Of a DNA stretch of 4,246 nt, positions 1 through 4,246 are shown piece after piece. Numbering within the stretch: the stretch's first letter is position 1; each line of letters begins with the position of its first letter. This DNA comes from a virus. Taxonomy: Duplodnaviria; Heunggongvirae; Uroviricota; Caudoviricetes. A program made the translations under genes and the position numbers. The stretch lies in IMG/VR virus record IMGVR_UViG_2778261504_000015, positions 1 through 4,246 of that record. One strand, given 5' to 3'. The notes beneath the pieces are model-generated. The model was not told where the DNA came from. It saw only the letters and a list, made by a program, of their open reading frames with translations, and searched no databases.

Positions 1-408
1 CTGGTCGGCGGAACGGTGGTCAGGCGTAAGGTTTACGCCCGTTTTCTGGATGCGGTGAACTTCGTCAACGGAAACAGCGATGCCGATCCGGAGCAGGAGG
101 TGATCAGCCGCTGGCGCATCGAGCAGTGCAGCGAACTGAGCGCGGTCAGTGCCTCCTTTGTACTGTCCACACCGACGGAAACGGATGGTGCTGTTTTTCC
201 GGGGCGCATCATGCTGGCCAACACCTGCACCTGGACCTATCGCGGCGATGAGTGCGGTTATAGCGGTCCGGCGGTCGCGGATGAATATGACCAGCCAACG
301 TCCGATATCACGAAGGATAAATGCAGCAAATGCCTGAGCGGTTGTAAGTTCCGCAATAACGTCGGCAACTTTGGCGGTTTCCTTTCCATTAATAAACTTT
401 CGCAGTAA
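1..408 (+). CDS. L: Phage minor tail protein L (tail tip complex), C-terminal 135 codons; 5' end lies upstream of the window
   Basis: Frame 1 is open from nt 1 to TAA at 406-408. The translation (...RRKVYARFLDAVNFVNGNSDADPEQE...CSKCLSGCKFRNNVGNFGGFLSINKLSQ) matches my recollection of the lambda gpL C-terminus, including the cysteine-rich segment. The track ORF 16..408 begins at an internal GTG; the true start is outside the window. It sits immediately upstream of K-I-J, as in lambda. Confidence 0.9.
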   Translation: MVGGTVVRRKVYARFLDAVNFVNGNSDADPEQEVISRWRIEQCSELSAVSASFVLSTPTETDGAVFPGRIMLANTCTWTYRGDECGYSGPAVADEYDQPTSDITKDKCSKCLSGCKFRNNVGNFGGFLSINKLSQ

Positions 409-418
409 ATCCCGGTTT

Positions 419-1162
419 ATGACACAGACTGAATCAGCGATTCTGGCGCATGCCCGGCGGTGTGCGCCTGCGGAGTCGTGCGGCTTCGTGGTGAGAACGC
501 CGGAGGGGGAGCGGTATATCCCTTGTGTGAATATCTCTGCAGAGCCGGAGGCGTATTTTCGTATTGCACCGGAAGACTGGCTGCGGGCAGAGATGCAGGG
601 GGAGATTGTGGCACTGGTCCACAGTCATCCCGGTGGTCTGCCCTGGCTGAGCGAGGCCGACCGGCGGCTGCAGATAAAAAGTGCACTGTCCTGGTGGCTG
701 GTCTGCCGGGGGGAAATTCATAAATTCCGCTGTGTGCCACATCTGACAGGACGGCGCTTTGAGCACGGGGTGACGGACTGTTACACGCTGTTCCGGGATG
801 CATACCATCTGGCGGGAATTGATATGCCGGATTTTGAGCGTGAGGATGACTGGTGGCGTAACGGTCAGAACCTTTACCTGGACAATATGGCGGTCACCGG
901 CTTTTACCGGGTGCCCCTGTCCTCTGCACAGGCGGGCGATATCCTGCTGTGCTGCTTTGGCGCATCGGTGGCCAATCATGCCGCCATTTACTGCGGCAAC
1001 GGTGAACTGCTTCACCATCTGCCTGAACAACTGAGTAAACGGGAGAGGTATTCCGAAAAATGGCAACGACGAACGCATTCTGTCTGGCGTCACCGCCACT
1101 GGCACGTATCTGCCTTCACGGGGATTTGCAACGATTTGGCCGCCGCCTCAGCCTGTATGTGA
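419..1162 (+). CDS. K: Tail tip assembly protein K: N-terminal JAB/MPN (JAMM) metalloprotease-like domain plus C-terminal NlpC/P60 (C40) cysteine peptidase-like domain, 247 aa as called
   Basis: ATG at 419 gives MTQTESAILAHARR..., 10 nt after the L stop, ending at TGA 1160-1162. A JAMM motif H-S-H-x7-S-x2-D (HSHPGGLPWLSEAD) is encoded at 620-661. NlpC/P60-like catalytic residues are Cys in GVTDCYTLF (codon 779-781), His in ANHAAIY (977-979) and the following LLHH. The track start at 371 is a TTG inside L and is not preferred. No obvious Shine-Dalgarno precedes 419, so translation may be coupled to L. Confidence 0.87.
   Translation: MTQTESAILAHARRCAPAESCGFVVRTPEGERYIPCVNISAEPEAYFRIAPEDWLRAEMQGEIVALVHSHPGGLPWLSEADRRLQIKSALSWWLVCRGEIHKFRCVPHLTGRRFEHGVTDCYTLFRDAYHLAGIDMPDFEREDDWWRNGQNLYLDNMAVTGFYRVPLSSAQAGDILLCCFGASVANHAAIYCGNGELLHHLPEQLSKRERYSEKWQRRTHSVWRHRHWHVSAFTGICNDLAAASACM
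1041..1048 (+). promoter_or_regulatory. Shine-Dalgarno for I (GGGAGAGG), embedded in K coding sequence
   Basis: Purine-rich GGGAGAGG lies 11 nt upstream of the I ATG at 1060. Confidence 0.5.
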
Positions 1163-1740
1163 ACACGGCAGCGGAAGCCATCCGTGCCCTGTCGATGCAG
1201 ATGCCGGGCTTTCGCCGTCAGATGAACGAAGGCTGGTACCAGATACGTATTCGCGGTGAGGACACGGCACCGGAGGCGGTGTACGCCCGTCTTCACGAAC
1301 AGCTGGGTGAGGGAACGGTCATCCACATTGTGCCGCGACTGGCCGGGGCCGGAAAAGGTGGACTGCAGATTGTGCTGGGGGCGGCAGCCATCGTGGGCTC
1401 TTTCTTCACTGCCGGGGCAACGATGGCGTTATGGGGTTCAGCCCTGGCAGCCGGTGGTTTTTCTGCCACCACGATGCTGTTTTCACTGGGGGCCAGCATG
1501 ATACTGGGTGGTGTGGCTCAGATGCTGGCCCCGAAGGCTAAAGTACCGGAGTACAAAAGCACGGATAACGGCAGACAGAACACGTACTTTTCCTCGCTGG
1601 ATAACATGATTGCACAGGGGAACCCGATGCCGGTGCCTTACGGTGAAATGCTGGTTGGCTCACGGCGAATCTCCCAGGACATCAGTACCCGTGATGAAGG
1701 CGGTGACGGGAAGGTGGTGGTTATCGGGCGGCAGGCATAA
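1060..1740 (+). CDS. I: Tail assembly protein I (ubiquitin-like N-terminal domain, Gly/Ala-rich hydrophobic C-terminal region), 226 aa
   Basis: ATG 1060 to TAA 1738-1740. The translation (MATTNAFCLASPPLARICLHGDLQRFGRR...GGLQIVLGAAAIVGSFFTAGAT...NGRQNTYFSSLDNMIAQGN...) resembles lambda gpI as I recall it. GGGAGAGG at 1041-1048 is a plausible Shine-Dalgarno. The start lies inside the 3' end of K in a different frame. Confidence 0.88.
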   Translation: MATTNAFCLASPPLARICLHGDLQRFGRRLSLYVNTAAEAIRALSMQMPGFRRQMNEGWYQIRIRGEDTAPEAVYARLHEQLGEGTVIHIVPRLAGAGKGGLQIVLGAAAIVGSFFTAGATMALWGSALAAGGFSATTMLFSLGASMILGGVAQMLAPKAKVPEYKSTDNGRQNTYFSSLDNMIAQGNPMPVPYGEMLVGSRRISQDISTRDEGGDGKVVVIGRQA

Positions 1741-1741
1741 A
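1734..1741. repeat. Left copy of 8-bp direct repeat GGCATAAA (includes the I stop codon)
   Basis: GGCATAAA at 1734-1741 and again at 1944-1951, bracketing about 210 bp. An 8-bp match could be chance. Confidence 0.3.
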
Positions 1742-1744
1742 AGC

Positions 1745-1777
1745 GAAAAAATCCCGCAGTGACCGAAGGCTGCGGGA
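1745..1777 (-). terminator. Putative intrinsic terminator for minus-strand transcription (hairpin followed by T-run on the minus strand)
   Basis: Perfect 8-bp inverted repeat TCCCGCAG (1752-1759) / CTGCGGGA (1770-1777) with a 10-nt loop. On the + strand it is preceded by AAAAAA (1746-1751), which on the minus strand is a T-run right after the stem. No T-run follows it on the + strand. Confidence 0.35.
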
Positions 1778-1784
1778 ACAGAAA

Positions 1785-1880
1785 ATGAAGATTAACCACA
1801 GGGAGTTTTGTTTTTATTGGCCCGAAAAAACTGTAACGCCCGGGAATGATATCTGCCACGGGGGCGTACAGAAAATGTGA
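1785..1880 (+). CDS. Hypothetical 31-aa small ORF inside the intergenic segment (MKINHREFCFYWPEKTVTPGNDICHGGVQKM); very low confidence
   Basis: ATG 1785 to TGA 1878-1880, with a weak GGGAA a few nt upstream. It is below the ORF track size cutoff, has no recognisable motif and is not hydrophobic. It lies between the two hairpins and upstream of the + strand terminator. Confidence 0.12.
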   Translation: MKINHREFCFYWPEKTVTPGNDICHGGVQKM

Positions 1881-1910
1881 AGAAATTCAGAAATTTTATT
1901 CCGTCATGAC

Positions 1911-1941
1911 ACAGGCACCCTCCGGGGTGCCTGTCGTTTTT
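1911..1941 (+). terminator. Rho-independent (intrinsic) terminator, + strand
   Basis: Perfect 10-bp inverted repeat ACAGGCACCC (1911-1920) / GGGTGCCTGT (1925-1934) around a 4-nt loop TCCG, followed by CG then TTTTT (1937-1941). Read directly from the sequence; stability was not computed. Confidence 0.65.
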
Positions 1942-1943
1942 GG

Positions 1944-1951
1944 GGCATAAA
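1944..1951. repeat. Right copy of 8-bp direct repeat GGCATAAA
   Basis: Exact match to 1734-1741; sits immediately after the + strand terminator T-run. Confidence 0.3.
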
Positions 1952-1956
1952 CAGAT

Positions 1957-1970
1957 TCAGACATCAGACA
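1957..1970. repeat. Perfect tandem heptamer TCAGACA x2, preceded by a degenerate third copy ACAGAT (1951-1956)
   Basis: TCAGACA at 1957-1963 and 1964-1970, read directly, ending immediately upstream of the J Shine-Dalgarno. Confidence 0.5.
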
Positions 1971-1980
1971 GGAGAGGGGG
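1971..1980 (+). promoter_or_regulatory. Shine-Dalgarno for J (GGAGAGGGGG)
   Basis: Strong purine-rich block ending 5 nt upstream of the GTG at 1986. Confidence 0.6.
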
Positions 1981-1985
1981 ACAGA

Positions 1986-4246
1986 GTGGGTAAAGGTGGC
2001 GGCAAGGCGCACACGCCGGTTGAGGCAAAGGACAATCTTAAGTCCACGCAGATGATGAGCGTGATTGATGCCATCGGTGAGGGACCGGTGGAAGGTCCGG
2101 TGAAGGGGCTGCAGAGTATTCTGGTGAACAAAACCCCGCTGACGGACACGGACGGTAATCCTGTGATACATGGTGTGACAGCGGTCTGGCGCGCCGGGGA
2201 GCAGGAGCAGACACCGCCGGAAGGTTTTGAGTCATCCGGCTCTGAAACCGCACTGGGCGTGGAAGTGACGAAGGCAAAGCCGGTGACGCGCACCATTACG
2301 TCCGCGAACATTGACCGCCTGCGGGTTACCTTCGGGGTGCAGTCACTGGTGCAGACCACCTCACAGGGTGACCGTAACCCGGCATCCGTCCGCCTGCTGA
2401 TTCAGCTGCAGCGTAACGGTAACTGGGTGACGGAAAAGGATGTCACCATTAACGGCAAGACCACCTCACAGTTCCTCGCTTCGGTGATTCTGGATAATCT
2501 GCCTCCCCGCCCCTTTAACATCCGGATGGTCAGGGAGACGGCGGACAGCACCACGGACCAGCTGCAGAATAAGACGCTCTGGTCGTCATACACCGAAATC
2601 ATCGATGTGAAACAGTGCTACCCGAACACGGCGATTGTGGGGCTGCAGGTGGATGCGGAGCAGTTTGGCGGTCAGCAGATGACGGTGAACTACCATATCC
2701 GCGGTCGCATCATTCAGGTGCCGTCAAACTATGACCCGGAAAAACGCACGTACAGCGGCATCTGGGACGGCAGCCTGAAACCGGCATACAGCAACAACCC
2801 GGCCTGGTGCCTGTGGGACATGCTGACTCACCCGCGCTACGGCATGGGAAAACGTCTGGGGGCGGCAGACGTGGACAAATGGGCGCTGTATGCCATTGCG
2901 CAGTACTGCGACCAGACGGTGCCGGATGGTTTCGGGGGCACAGAGCCGCGGATGACCTTTAATGCGTACCTGTCACAACAGCGTAAGGCGTGGGACGTTC
3001 TCAGTGATTTCTGCTCGGCGATGCGCTGTATGCCGGTATGGAACGGCCAGACGCTGACGTTCGTTCAGGACCGCCCGTCGGATGTGGTGTGGCCGTACAC
3101 CAGCAGCGATGTGGTGGTGGATGATAACGGCGTGGGGTTTCGCTACAGCTTCAGCGCCCTGAAGGACCGCCACACGGCGGTGGAGGTGAATTACACCGAC
3201 CCGCAGAACGGCTGGCAGACCTCCACGGAACTGGTGGAAGACCCGGAAGCCATACTGCGCTACGGGCGCAACCTGCTGAAGATGGATGCGTTCGGTTGCA
3301 CCAGTCGCGGTCAGGCCCACCGTGCCGGGCTGTGGGTAATAAAGACCGGACTGCTGGAAACGCAGACGGTGGATTTCACGCTCGGGTCACAGGGGCTGCG
3401 TCACACACCCGGTGACATTATTGAAATCTGTGATAACGACTATGCCGGGACCATGACCGGCGGACGTATCCTGTCCATCGATGCCGCCAGCCGCACCCTG
3501 ACACTGGACCGTGAGGTGACCCTGCCGGAGACAGGTGCCGCCACGGTGAACCTGATTAACGGCAGCGGTAAGCCGGTGAGCGTGGCCATCACTGCACACC
3601 CCGCGCCGGACCGGATACAGGTCAGCACCCTGCCTGATGGTGTGGAGACATACGGTGTATGGGGACTCTCCCTGCCGTCACTGCGTCGTCGCCTGTTCCG
3701 CTGTGTCTCCATCCGGGAAAACACGGACGGCACCTTTGCCATCACGGCGGTGCAGCACGTACCGGAAAAGGAAGCCATCGTGGATAACGGGGCCAGCTTT
3801 GAGCCGCAGTCAGGCACCCTGAACAGCGTCATCCCTCCGGCAGTGCAGCACCTGACGGTGGAGGTGAGCGCAGCTGACGGTCAGTATCTGGCGCAGGCGA
3901 AATGGGACACGCCGCGGGTGGTGAAGGGCGTGCGCTTCAGTCTGCGCCTGACCAGTGGAAGCGGTCAGGACAGCCGTCTGGTGACCACCGCCATCACCGC
4001 GGATACAGAGCACCGTTTCAGCGGTCTGCCGCCGGGGGAATACACCCTGACGGTCAGGGCAATTAACAGTTATGGCCAGCAGGGCGAACCGGCCACCACC
4101 ACCTTCCGGATTAACGCGCCAGCAAAACCCGCCACCATTGAACTGACACCGGGCTATTTTCAGATAACGGCGGTCCCGCGTCTTGCGGTGTATGACCCGA
4201 CGGTACAGTTTGAGTTCTGGTTTTCGGAGACAAAAATCGCAGACAT
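1986..4246 (+). CDS. J: Host specificity protein J / central tail fiber (tail tip attachment protein), N-terminal ~753 codons; 3' end beyond window
   Basis: GTG at 1986 is preceded by the strong Shine-Dalgarno GGAGAGGGGG (1971-1980). It is the first canonical start after the in-frame stop TGA at 1878-1880. The translation [39 protein letters not shown]... stays open to the window end and closely resembles the lambda gpJ N-terminus as I recall it. It is absent from the ORF track only because it has no stop within the window. Confidence 0.92.

What the first reader, a model, noticed from the sequence alone, without database searches (positions are those of the whole stretch)
419..1740. K and I form an overlapping pair: a JAB/MPN plus NlpC/P60 two-domain K and a ubiquitin-like I, with a 103-nt out-of-frame overlap
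K carries an intact JAMM metal-binding motif (HSH-x7-S-x2-D) and an apparent Cys/His/His NlpC/P60 triad. Both domains therefore look catalytically competent, not degenerate. The I start and its Shine-Dalgarno are embedded in the K 3' end (1060-1162), implying translational coupling and fixed stoichiometry. The pairing of a JAB-domain protein with a ubiquitin-like-fold partner in tail-tip assembly has been noted in comparative genomics, but its biochemical role (processing of I or of another tail component) is, as far as I know, still not well defined. K as called here is 247 aa, longer than I remember lambda K being annotated, but I cannot verify that from memory.
Basis: partly seen in the sequence, partly recalled or inferred. 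Interest (0 to 1): 0.4.

Follow-up and report, generated by a model that had tools for sequence, protein, structure and literature searches.

The report
Lambda-type tail genes K and I
These are the well-known tail-tip assembly genes K (a two-headed peptidase) and I (a ubiquitin-like domain fused to the tail plug) of a lambda-like E. coli prophage, overlapping by 103 bases as in phage lambda: correctly read but ordinary, and first described in 2006.

Summary

The 103-nt overlap is real. Many pipelines instead start I at GTG 1159, a 4-nt overlap, but codon-position variation, distant homologues and profile coverage all place the start upstream of 1101. ATG 1060 is the only start codon there. The long overlap is a derived trait of Enterobacterales; Xanthomonas-type relatives overlap by 4-8 nt.

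Lambda K is annotated as 199 aa only because reference J02459/NC_001416 lacks one G. Every independent resequencing gives the same 247-aa K.

Iyer, Burroughs and Aravind (2006) described the architecture, the pairing and the idea that JAB cuts I after the Gly-Gly. Cryo-EM and mass spectrometry now show that only the C-terminal part of I stays in tails. The protease is still unproven. Translational coupling and fixed stoichiometry are not shown.

The parts
1..408 (+). 3' end of tail-tip gene L (runs off the window start), stop TAA 406-408
   Evidence: Pfam Phage_tail_L E 4e-63, profile positions 70-206 of 206
419..1162 (+). Gene K, 247 aa, tail-tip assembly peptidase. ATG lies 10 nt after the L stop, with no obvious SD
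   Evidence: ORF; Prok-JAB plus NLPC_P60; 247-aa relatives at 97-98% identity; same call in RefSeq NC_049941
425..733 (+). JAB/MPN (JAMM) domain of K, residues 3-105
   Evidence: Pfam PF14464; K-family profile hits P. furiosus JAMM1 5lda/5ld9 at E 3e-11 and MPN structures 2kks/2kcq
473..475 (+). JAMM catalytic Glu19, in the motif E-S-C-G
   Evidence: E in 97% of 106 relatives below 62% identity; aligns to the E-x-C-G of JAMM1
620..661 (+). JAMM metal-binding motif H68-S-H70-x7-S78-x2-D81
   Evidence: H68 98%, H70 97%, S78 91%, D81 97% conserved; aligned to the HSH...S..D of JAMM1
749..1090 (+). NlpC/P60 (C40) domain of K, residues 111-224, with C121 (779-781), H187 (977-979) and H199-H200 (1013-1018)
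   Evidence: Pfam PF00877; C121 96%, H187 98%, H199 99%, H200 92% conserved; aligned to the Cys and two His of E. coli Spr/MepS 2k1g
1097..1159 (+). C-terminal tail of K, residues 227-247, with motif F-T-G-I-C-N-D-L. Lineage-specific and overprinted on the I N-terminus
   Evidence: Absent from relatives at or below about 44% identity, kept in those at 45-59%; distant relatives align only to about residue 226; K stops before I beta1 in the Xanthomonas and Stutzerimonas loci
1041..1048 (+). SD-like GGGAGAGG, 11 nt upstream of the I start, inside K codons for R-E-R
   Evidence: Read from sequence; the GAGAGG core and the ATG are kept in 98 of 98 alleles
1060..1740 (+). Gene I, 226 aa: ubiquitin-like domain, Gly/Ala-rich hydrophobic linker, C-terminal plug domain
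   Evidence: ORF; lambda gpI chain 8iyk_I E 1e-94; Pfam Lambda_tail_I; PHROG 32 covers residues 13-214
1060..1162 (+). K/I overlap, 103 nt, with I in the -1 frame. 1060-1100 evolves like K-only sequence; 1101-1159 is dual-coding with the I frame dominant
   Evidence: Codon-position entropy over 98 alleles; the conserved K motif FTGICNDL lies on the conserved I motif GDLQRFG
1159..1161 (+). Alternative GTG start for I used by many pipelines (193 aa, GTGA overlap with the K stop). Rejected
   Evidence: 193-aa and 190-aa calls; it would delete beta1, which is conserved in 9l9p_A and 25vf_9 and modelled at I residues 15-19
1102..1338 (+). Beta-grasp (MoaD/ThiS/SAMP-like) ubiquitin-like domain of I, residues 15-93
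1357..1362 (+). Gly100-Gly101 ending the Ubl tail (A-G-A-G-K-G-G), the proposed JAB cleavage site
   Evidence: G101 invariant and G100 at least 90% conserved in 20 relatives; G-[AS]-K-x-G-G kept from Escherichia to Xanthomonas and Stutzerimonas
1363..1527 (+). Gly/Ala-rich hydrophobic linker, residues 102-156. Two transmembrane-like helices in the lambda literature
   Evidence: Alignment to lambda gpI; literature
1468..1731 (+). C-terminal plug part of I, residues 137-224. This is the only part seen in mature lambda tail tips
   Evidence: Aligns to deposited chains 9e7m_Ia/Ic, E 2e-37; lambda gpI residues 134/135-223 resolved in virions
1741..1985 (+). I-J spacer, 245 nt, with a terminator-like hairpin at 1911-1934 plus a T-run
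   Evidence: spacer length varies from 40 to 851 nt, plus IS insertions, among relatives; no Rfam match
1986..4246 (+). 5' two-thirds of gene J (central tail fibre), GTG start, runs off the window end
   Evidence: Pfam FNIII-A_GpJ, Phage-tail_3, Ig_J

Best explanation
Shown: the region encodes the lambda-type tail-tip assembly pair K and I of a lambdoid E. coli prophage. K is a cytoplasmic protein with two peptidase domains: an N-terminal JAMM/JAB metalloprotease and a C-terminal NlpC/P60 cysteine peptidase. The catalytic residues of both are intact and among the best-conserved columns in the family. I has three parts: a MoaD/SAMP-like ubiquitin-like domain ending in a conserved Gly-Gly, a hydrophobic Gly/Ala-rich linker, and a C-terminal domain. 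In lambda, that C-terminal domain forms the trimeric plug in the tail-tip lumen and holds the C-terminus of the tape measure. I is translated from ATG 1060, inside K, so 103 nt are read in two frames. The last ~60 nt encode both a conserved K tail motif and the first strand of the I beta-grasp. Inferred: K acts only during assembly and is not in the virion. Its JAB domain cuts I just after Gly101, as JAMM desampylases and deubiquitinases cut after the C-terminal Gly-Gly of their beta-grasp substrates. This removes the Ubl, which serves as a temporary chaperone or steric block, so that the finished tip can dock onto the tape measure and tube. The NlpC/P60 domain probably makes a further proteolytic cut, in I or in another tail protein. 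The I start has its own SD-like sequence. Passage of K-translating ribosomes may help expose it, but coupling is not demonstrated.
For: Family and motif tests. Ubl fold. Conserved Gly-Gly. Start of I and dual coding. Identity with lambda K and I and the same overlap. The K JAB domain's nearest solved and curated relatives are Ubl-cleaving enzymes: P. furiosus JAMM1 5lda and a sub-threshold NCBIfam desampylase match. Literature: gpK is absent from lambda virions by mass spectrometry and cryo-EM, and only gpI residues 134/135-223 are resolved (PMC10721106 and PMC12617516). The single gpI peptide in virion mass spectrometry (9.87% coverage) can only be the C-terminal tryptic peptide 202-223. [quoted passage not shown] There the gpK homologue PA0639 is required for tip formation and absent from particles (bioRxiv 10.64898/2026.02.24.707460). 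The cleavage hypothesis itself comes from Iyer et al. 2006 (PMC1779556).
Against: No experiment links K to the cleavage of I. PA0640 expressed alone in E. coli loses its N-terminal region to unknown host proteases, so K is not strictly needed for removal. The exact cleavage site is unknown, and residues 102-134 of gpI are simply unresolved. A two-hybrid screen found no K-I interaction (PMC3224144). The screen cites J02459, whose K annotation is the truncated 199-aa form, but the clone used was not checked. The AF2 model of the Ubl is only of moderate confidence (pLDDT 72, 20-sequence alignment).
Confidence: 0.6

Rival explanations
1. The 103-nt overlap is an annotation artefact. I really starts at the GTG that overlaps the K stop (GTGA, window 1159-1161), giving a 193-aa protein and an ordinary 4-nt coupling overlap.
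For: Many pipelines call it this way: a 193-aa cluster P0133 with 4540 member sequences; 190-aa calls on lambda-like contigs; and the 2025 lambda record PV340536. The GTGA arrangement is kept in most alleles.
Against: In 1101-1159, variation follows the I-frame pattern and total variation is low (I1 0.21, I2 0.13, I3 0.28, against K3 0.47-0.64 in K-only sequence). Distant homologues 9l9p_A and 25vf_9 align from their residues 8-9 to I residues 13-19, including beta1. The Pfam and PHROG profiles start at I residues 13-15. The AF2 model has beta1 at residues 15-19, with pLDDT about 75. In Xanthomonas, Stenotrophomonas and Stutzerimonas, the same beta1 lies downstream of the K stop.
Confidence: 0.04
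2. K is not the protease that removes the Ubl of I. Host proteases or autoproteolysis trim I. The K peptidase domains act on another substrate, for example the unexplained cleavage of tape measure gpH to gpH*, or K works mainly as a chaperone.
For: PA0640 expressed alone in E. coli loses its N-terminal region. The catalyst of gpH cleavage is stated to be unknown (PMC12617516). No K-I interaction was seen in a two-hybrid screen.
Against: The JAB-next-to-Ubl-with-terminal-Gly pairing is conserved across Gamma- and Betaproteobacteria. JAMM residues are conserved at 91-98%. The nearest characterised relatives of the JAB domain cut after the C-terminal Gly-Gly of beta-grasp proteins. A pure chaperone would not need two intact active sites.
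Confidence: 0.3
3. The NlpC/P60 domain of K is a virion-borne peptidoglycan hydrolase used to cross the cell wall at infection.
For: Its nearest solved relatives are murein endopeptidases: Spr/MepS, CwlO and LytE. There is also a weak hit to the NCBIfam 'putative phage cell wall peptidase' model.
Against: gpK is not detected in lambda virions by mass spectrometry or cryo-EM. PA0639 is absent from F-pyocin particles. K has no signal peptide or transmembrane segment evident in the sequence.
Confidence: 0.03
4. The long overlap supports a programmed -1 frameshift that makes a K-I fusion protein, by analogy with lambda G-T.
For: I lies in the -1 frame, that frame is open from 1039, and an A-run sits at 1056-1060. 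Some database entries are K-I fusions (P0024, P0044, P0114, P0119).
Against: There is no X XXY YYZ heptamer. The A-run is GACAAA in about 40% of alleles, including lambda. The fusion entries are one- or two-member clusters (1, 1, 1 and 2 member sequences) with different junctions, as expected of sequencing errors or pseudogenes.
Confidence: 0.02

Closest known systems
Phage lambda gpK and gpI (TAPK/TAPI of Iyer, Burroughs and Aravind 2006, Genome Biol 7:R60)
   Same: Same gene order L-K-I-J, same 247-aa K once the lambda sequence is corrected (86% identity), a 68%-identical I, the same 103-nt -1-frame overlap, the same SD/ATG context, and the same JAB + NlpC/P60 and Ubl + linker + C-domain architecture.
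   Different: Only allelic differences. The window K has Ile49 where lambda has the internal Met that gene callers mistake for the start. The window I lacks the Phe after the Gly-Gly (GGL-Q against GGVFQ). The I-J spacer is 245 nt against 60 nt.
P. aeruginosa F-pyocin PA0639 (gpK-like) and PA0640 (gpI-like tip plug; 25vf_9 is possibly this chain, an unchecked guess from its 200-aa length)
   Same: Homologous I: 25vf_9 hits at E 1e-13 and conserves beta1, the G-S-K-x-x-G motif and the plug domain. The K homologue is an assembly-only factor. The I homologue's N-terminal domain is removed before the tip joins the tube.
   Different: It is a tailocin, not a phage. In related Pseudomonadales and Xanthomonadales loci, K and I overlap by only 4-8 nt and K lacks the C-terminal tail. 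The sequence of PA0639 itself was not examined here.
Archaeal JAMM1 desampylases with SAMP1/2 (PfJAMM1-SAMP2, PDB 5lda). From my own knowledge, also Mec+/CysO and QbsD/QbsE
   Same: A JAMM peptidase paired with a MoaD/ThiS-type beta-grasp protein that ends in Gly-Gly. The K profile aligns to JAMM1 across the E...HSH...S..D motif. The I Ubl matches SAMP1 and MoaD folds.
   Different: There is no E1-like adenylating enzyme or sulfur chemistry in the phage module. Here the Ubl is fused in cis, upstream of its cargo, so the predicted reaction is a single linear-fusion cleavage and not deconjugation. K scores far below the NCBIfam desampylase cutoff (31 bits against 130), so it is not a member of that equivalog.
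E. coli Spr/MepS and other NlpC/P60 murein endopeptidases
   Same: Papain-like fold family with the Cys and two His aligned.
   Different: K is cytoplasmic and has no export signal or cell-wall-binding domain. Its substrate is probably a protein. Similarity is limited (E 2e-7 with a family profile).
Phage T5 baseplate hub pb3 plug domain
   Same: According to PMC10721106, the gpI tripod sits where the T5 pb3 plug closes the tube, and the gene order matches.
   Different: In T5 the plug is an insertion within one large hub protein. No separate Ubl or K-type peptidase is described. This was not tested here.

Membership tests
JAB/MPN+ (JAMM) metallopeptidase, Pfam Prok-JAB PF14464 | Profile match above the curated gathering score | tested here: met
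   58.3 bits against a cutoff of 25, residues 3-105 covering profile positions 3-113 of 114
JAB/MPN+ (JAMM) metallopeptidase, Pfam Prok-JAB PF14464 | Catalytic motif E-x(n)-H-x-H-x7-S-x2-D at the family's conserved positions | tested here: met
   E19, H68, H70, S78 and D81 are 91-98% conserved in 106 distant relatives and aligned to the motif of JAMM1 5lda and the MPN structures 2kks/2kcq
JAB/MPN+ (JAMM) metallopeptidase, Pfam Prok-JAB PF14464 | Zinc binding and isopeptidase or peptidase activity | not testable with these tools
   Needs purified protein
NlpC/P60 (MEROPS C40), Pfam PF00877 | Profile match above the curated gathering score | tested here: met
   50.2 bits against a cutoff of 23, residues 111-224 covering profile positions 1-105 of 105
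NlpC/P60 (MEROPS C40), Pfam PF00877 | Cys, His and a third polar residue (His) at the conserved positions | tested here: met
   C121 96%, H187 98%, H199 99% conserved. These align to D-C, x-H-x-G-I-Y and x-H of Spr 2k1g. The Spr residue numbers Cys68/His119/His131 are from my memory.
Lambda tail assembly protein I, Pfam PF06805 / PHROG 32 | Profile match above the cutoff and full-length similarity to lambda gpI | tested here: met
   59.2 bits against a cutoff of 23.8; 8iyk_I E 1e-94 over residues 1-224; PHROG 32 E 6e-79
ThiS/MoaD/SAMP-type ubiquitin-like beta-grasp | Beta-grasp fold | tested here: met
ThiS/MoaD/SAMP-type ubiquitin-like beta-grasp | Flexible C-terminal tail ending in Gly-Gly | tested here: met
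   A-G-A-G-K-G100-G101 follows the last strand (residues 86-92). G101 is invariant and G100 at least 90% conserved in 20 relatives. The motif is kept in distant loci. Here it is internal and followed by the linker.
ThiS/MoaD/SAMP-type ubiquitin-like beta-grasp | Activation by an E1-like adenylating enzyme, with thiocarboxylation or conjugation | not tested
   No E1-like gene lies in the window. Iyer et al. report none in these phage neighbourhoods.
Overlapping (dual-coding) gene pair | Both frames under purifying selection across the shared stretch | tested here: met
   Holds for 1101-1159, where the conserved K motif FTGICNDL lies on the conserved I motif GDLQRFG. In 1060-1100 only the K frame is visibly constrained.
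Translationally coupled gene pair | Downstream initiation depends on upstream translation | not testable with these tools
   Only a conserved SD-like GAGAGG and the ATG are seen. The start lies 100 nt upstream of the K stop, so classical termination-reinitiation is unlikely.

The most novel reading that the evidence does not exclude
K may be the unidentified 'checkpoint' protease of lambda-type tail tips and may make two different cuts. Its JAB domain would release the MoaD-like Ubl of I by cutting after Gly101, a deubiquitinase-type reaction used as an assembly timer. Its NlpC/P60 domain would make the second, still unexplained cut: either in the I linker or the gpH to gpH* cleavage of the tape measure. 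A further possibility is that the conserved K tail motif FTGICNDL, overprinted on I beta1 only in Enterobacterales and Pasteurellales, is a docking element for this reaction.
Probability: 0.15. Interest if true: 0.5.

Novelty: already known. Interest (0 to 1): 0.15.

Why it matters
As a discovery it matters little. The genes, their domains, their pairing and the overlap are textbook lambda biology plus a 2006 comparative-genomics paper.

Three practical points come out of the check.

1. The lambda reference record (J02459/NC_001416) lacks one G in K. This truncates K to 199 aa and removes the catalytic Glu and the first 48 residues of the JAB domain. The error has propagated to other records, for example DE3 in RefSeq. 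It may also affect clones or structure predictions built from the 199-aa annotation.

2. Annotation pipelines disagree on the start of I (226/223, 210 or 193/190 aa). The short calls delete the first strand of the ubiquitin-like domain.

3. Recent cryo-EM and mass-spectrometry data make the 2006 hypothesis (JAB cuts I after the Gly-Gly) directly testable with a few point mutants. It would be a clean example of a deubiquitinase-like reaction used for virus assembly.

Tried and rejected
1. GTG 1159 as the I start: rejected.

2. Programmed -1 frameshift giving a K-I fusion: no conserved slippery site, and the database fusions are one- or two-member clusters.

3. A real frameshift in lambda K, which would mean a dispensable JAB domain in lambda: rejected. 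Resequenced lambda, DE3, HK629/HK630 and at least 9 lambda contaminant contigs all carry the extra G. None of the 2.9 million IMG/VR contigs has the shorter version.

4. The abundant 199-aa K clusters as natural truncations: they are gene-caller choices of an internal SD+ATG on intact ORFs.

5. The antisense ORF 434-1105 (223 aa): a shadow ORF. Variation peaks at K codon position 3, whereas the antisense third position falls on K position 1.

6. RNA elements: no Rfam hit anywhere in the window.

7. The search for related loci with K alignments A6 and A7 failed for lack of a sufficiently conserved stretch. The I alignment was used instead.

8. The first AF2 job on single-sequence I gave a poor model (pLDDT 43).

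9. Literature searches for a published note on the missing G in J02459 found nothing in the held library. My recollection that vendor notes list a G insertion near 14266 is unverified.
Full report
WHAT IS THERE

The window is the tail-tip module of a lambdoid E. coli prophage. It is 95-96% identical over its full length to Stx-converting phages. It carries four genes:
- the 3' end of L (1-408);
- K (419-1162, 247 aa);
- I (1060-1740, 226 aa);
- after a 245-nt spacer, J from GTG 1986.

K and I share 1060-1162 (103 nt), with I in the -1 frame. A RefSeq relative (NC_049941) annotates the same 744-nt 'C40 family peptidase' and 681-nt 'tail assembly protein' with the same overlap. Lambda's K/I overlap is also 103 nt.

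K

Pfam places residues 3-105 in Prok-JAB (E 8e-16) and residues 111-224 in NlpC/P60 (E 3e-13). Both scores are well above the gathering cutoffs.

A HMMER search of 1.84 billion representative proteins found 2792 relatives. In 106 full-length relatives below 62% identity, the columns conserved at 90% or more include these:
- E19, C21, G22, H68, S69, H70, S78 and D81, which form the JAMM motif;
- D120, C121, H187, H199 and H200, which form the NlpC/P60 centre.

A profile built from 72 relatives hits P. furiosus JAMM1 (5lda/5ld9, E 3e-11), two MPN NMR structures, and E. coli Spr/MepS (E 2e-7). In each alignment the catalytic residues are in register. It is reinforced by selection acting on exactly those residues.

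WHY LAMBDA K IS ANNOTATED SHORTER

NC_001416 lists K as 14276-14875 (199 aa), leaving a 148-nt gap after L. Lambda has the same upstream ATG and the same 48 codons as the window. However, the reference reads GGAGGC-TATTT where the window reads GGAGGCGTATTT.

The evidence that the reference is the odd one out:
- Resequenced lambda (PV340536 and LC730321, which is 48,503 bp) and DE3 carry the extra G and encode a 247-aa K. HK629, HK630 and the imm21 and imm434 hybrids span 107 nt for the 106-nt query, one base more than the reference.
- Only 4 of the 37 phage records at or above 99% identity share the shorter version.
- No IMG/VR contig has it, against at least 120 with the extra base.
- At least 9 lambda contaminant contigs, found in genome assemblies of unrelated bacteria, match J02459 over 2131 nt with zero mismatches and exactly one gap, at this G.

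The 199-aa lambda K is therefore most likely an error in the 1982 reference, or a lesion private to that stock. It has propagated by annotation transfer: DE3 in RefSeq is still called 199 aa on an intact ORF. The large 199-aa protein clusters (P0098, P0120) are gene-caller choices of an internal ATG with a GGAGG 10 nt upstream, on intact ORFs. In the window that Met is Ile49, so no such choice exists.

I AND ITS START

I is 68% identical to lambda gpI over its whole length (8iyk_I, E 1e-94).

Annotations disagree on the start. Some use the ATG (226 or 223 aa). Others use the GTG that overlaps the K stop as GTGA (193 or 190 aa). Four results favour ATG 1060.

1. Codon-position entropy over 98 distinct alleles:

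| Region | K pos. 1 (= I pos. 2) | K pos. 2 (= I pos. 3) | K pos. 3 (= I pos. 1) |
|---|---|---|---|
| K-only, 419-1059 | 0.14 | 0.07 | 0.47 |
| Overlap, 1060-1100 | 0.14 | 0.13 | 0.54 |
| Overlap, 1101-1159 | 0.13 | 0.28 | 0.21 |

The first part of the overlap keeps the K pattern. The second part switches to an I-type pattern with low total variation, which is the signature of dual coding.

2. Distant solved homologues 9l9p_A and 25vf_9 align from their residues 8-9 to I residues 13-19, including beta1.
3. The Pfam and PHROG profiles begin at I residues 13-15.
4. An AF2 model has beta1 at residues 15-19.

Between the in-frame stop at 1036-1038 and position 1101, ATG 1060 is the only ATG, GTG or TTG. 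It and the GAGAGG 11 nt upstream are kept in 98 of 98 alleles.

THE OVERLAP IN EVOLUTIONARY CONTEXT

A genome scan with the I alignment returned 57 loci. Overlap lengths:

| Lineage | K/I overlap |
|---|---|
| Escherichia, Shigella, Citrobacter, Edwardsiella | 103-106 nt |
| Morganella, Providencia, Xenorhabdus | 97 nt |
| Rodentibacter | 58 nt |
| Xanthomonas, Stenotrophomonas, Stutzerimonas | 4-8 nt (the candidate start nearest the K stop) |

In the first three groups the K stop lies 49-58 nt inside the beta-grasp coding sequence. In the last group K ends 13-17 nt before beta1.

The long overlap is therefore derived. K acquired a C-terminal tail with the motif F-T-G-I-C-N-D-L, conserved down to about 45% identity. 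This tail is overprinted on the I motif G-D-L-Q-R-F-G.

UBIQUITIN-LIKE FOLD AND THE GLY-GLY

The model of I residues 1-105 (pLDDT 72) matches these folds, with 72-88 residues aligned:

The last strand (residues 86-92) is followed by R-L-A-G-A-G-K-G100-G101. G101 is invariant and G100 at least 90% conserved in 20 relatives. G-[AS]-K-x-G-G-x-F-Q persists from Escherichia to Xanthomonas and Stutzerimonas.

MECHANISM

Iyer, Burroughs and Aravind (2006) described TAPK as JAB + NlpC/P60 and TAPI as Ubl + Gly-rich linker + C-domain. They described the conserved neighbourhood and proposed that JAB releases the Ubl by cutting at its C-terminal Gly.

Later data fit that proposal:
- gpK is absent from lambda virions, and only gpI residues 134/135-223 are resolved, as a trimeric plug holding the C-terminus of gpH.
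- The single gpI peptide in virion mass spectrometry (9.87% coverage) can only be the C-terminal tryptic peptide 202-223. This is my inference and has low power.
[quoted passage not shown] The gpK homologue is required for tip formation and is absent from particles.

Against a strict requirement for K, the F-pyocin gpI homologue expressed alone in E. coli is trimmed by host proteases. No experiment yet connects K to the cut.

I therefore rate the gene and domain identification as near certain, and the statement 'K JAB cuts I after Gly101' at about even odds. The role of the NlpC/P60 domain is open. A virion-borne muralytic role is unlikely because K is not in particles.

COUPLING

The start lies 100 nt upstream of the K stop, so termination-reinitiation is unlikely. 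The conserved SD-like sequence is also K coding sequence. K and I have different fates.

NOVELTY

Already known. The useful by-products are the explanation of the lambda K length discrepancy, the resolution of the I start, and the finding that the long overlap is lineage-specific overprinting.

Noticed in passing
L002 (NC_001416) 1265-1266, which is lambda about 14264-14266; corresponds to window 553: Lambda reference J02459/NC_001416 lacks one G (GGAGGC-TATTT against GGAGGCGTATTT). This splits K and yields the 199-aa annotation. Resequenced lambda, DE3, HK629/HK630 and at least 9 contaminant lambda contigs all have the G and a 247-aa K.
   Followed up: yes
L133, L135, L136, L137, L139, L140, L142, L143, L144 (genome-contig loci): GTDB species-representative assemblies of unrelated bacteria carry low-coverage contigs, some about 48.5 kb long, that match phage lambda with no mismatches over the 2131 nt compared. 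The organisms include Neobacillus, Pseudomonas, Chromatium, Shewanella, Leeuwenhoekiella, Bradyrhizobium and Paenibacillus. These are almost certainly control-DNA contamination. L129, labelled Streptomyces flavalbus, is a 3.4-kb contig whose I protein is 96% identical to the window's and whose K tail is near-identical.
   Followed up: partly
window 1159-1161 and 1060-1062; L125 1860-2432; P0133, P0124, P0223: The start of gene I is annotated in at least three ways in public records: 226/223 aa, 210 aa from an internal Met in lambda-type alleles, and 193/190 aa from the GTGA overlap. The short forms remove the first strand of the ubiquitin-like domain.
   Followed up: yes
window 563-565 (K Ile49); L123 and L124 around 1501: Lambda-type K alleles have an internal Met preceded by GGAGG. 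Gene callers prefer this to the true ATG, which has no SD and sits 5-10 nt after the L stop. This produced 199-aa clusters with thousands of member sequences on intact ORFs. Whether that internal site is ever used in vivo to make a short, JAB-defective K isoform is unknown. The window allele cannot use it.
   Followed up: partly
window 1741-1985: The I-J spacer is 245 nt here and 60 nt in lambda. Among relatives it ranges from 40 to 851 nt, and further with IS66 in Stx2a_WGPS2 (L001), so this junction is an insertion hot spot. It holds a stem right after the I stop (1752-1777), a terminator-like hairpin with a T-run (1911-1934) just before J, and an unannotated 31-codon ORF (1785-1880). Lambda also has a hairpin with a T-run between I and J.
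   Followed up: partly
window 1363-1365 (I Leu102-Gln103): The window I and its closest alleles lack the Phe that follows the Gly-Gly in most homologues (GGL-Q against GG[VL]FQ). This one-residue deletion sits exactly at the predicted P1'-P2' side of the proposed cleavage site.
   Followed up: no
P0024, P0044, P0114, P0119 (protein database entries): One- or two-member 'K-I fusion' and 'L-K fusion' proteins occur in public collections, with different junctions. They look like frameshift sequencing errors or decaying prophages and not like a biological fusion. Iyer et al. 2006 also mention one E. coli prophage with I fused to JAB.
   Followed up: partly
window 434-1105, minus strand: A 223-aa ORF lies antisense to K. 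Its third codon position falls on K position 1, not on the variable K position 3, so it shows no coding signature of its own and is a shadow ORF.
   Followed up: yes
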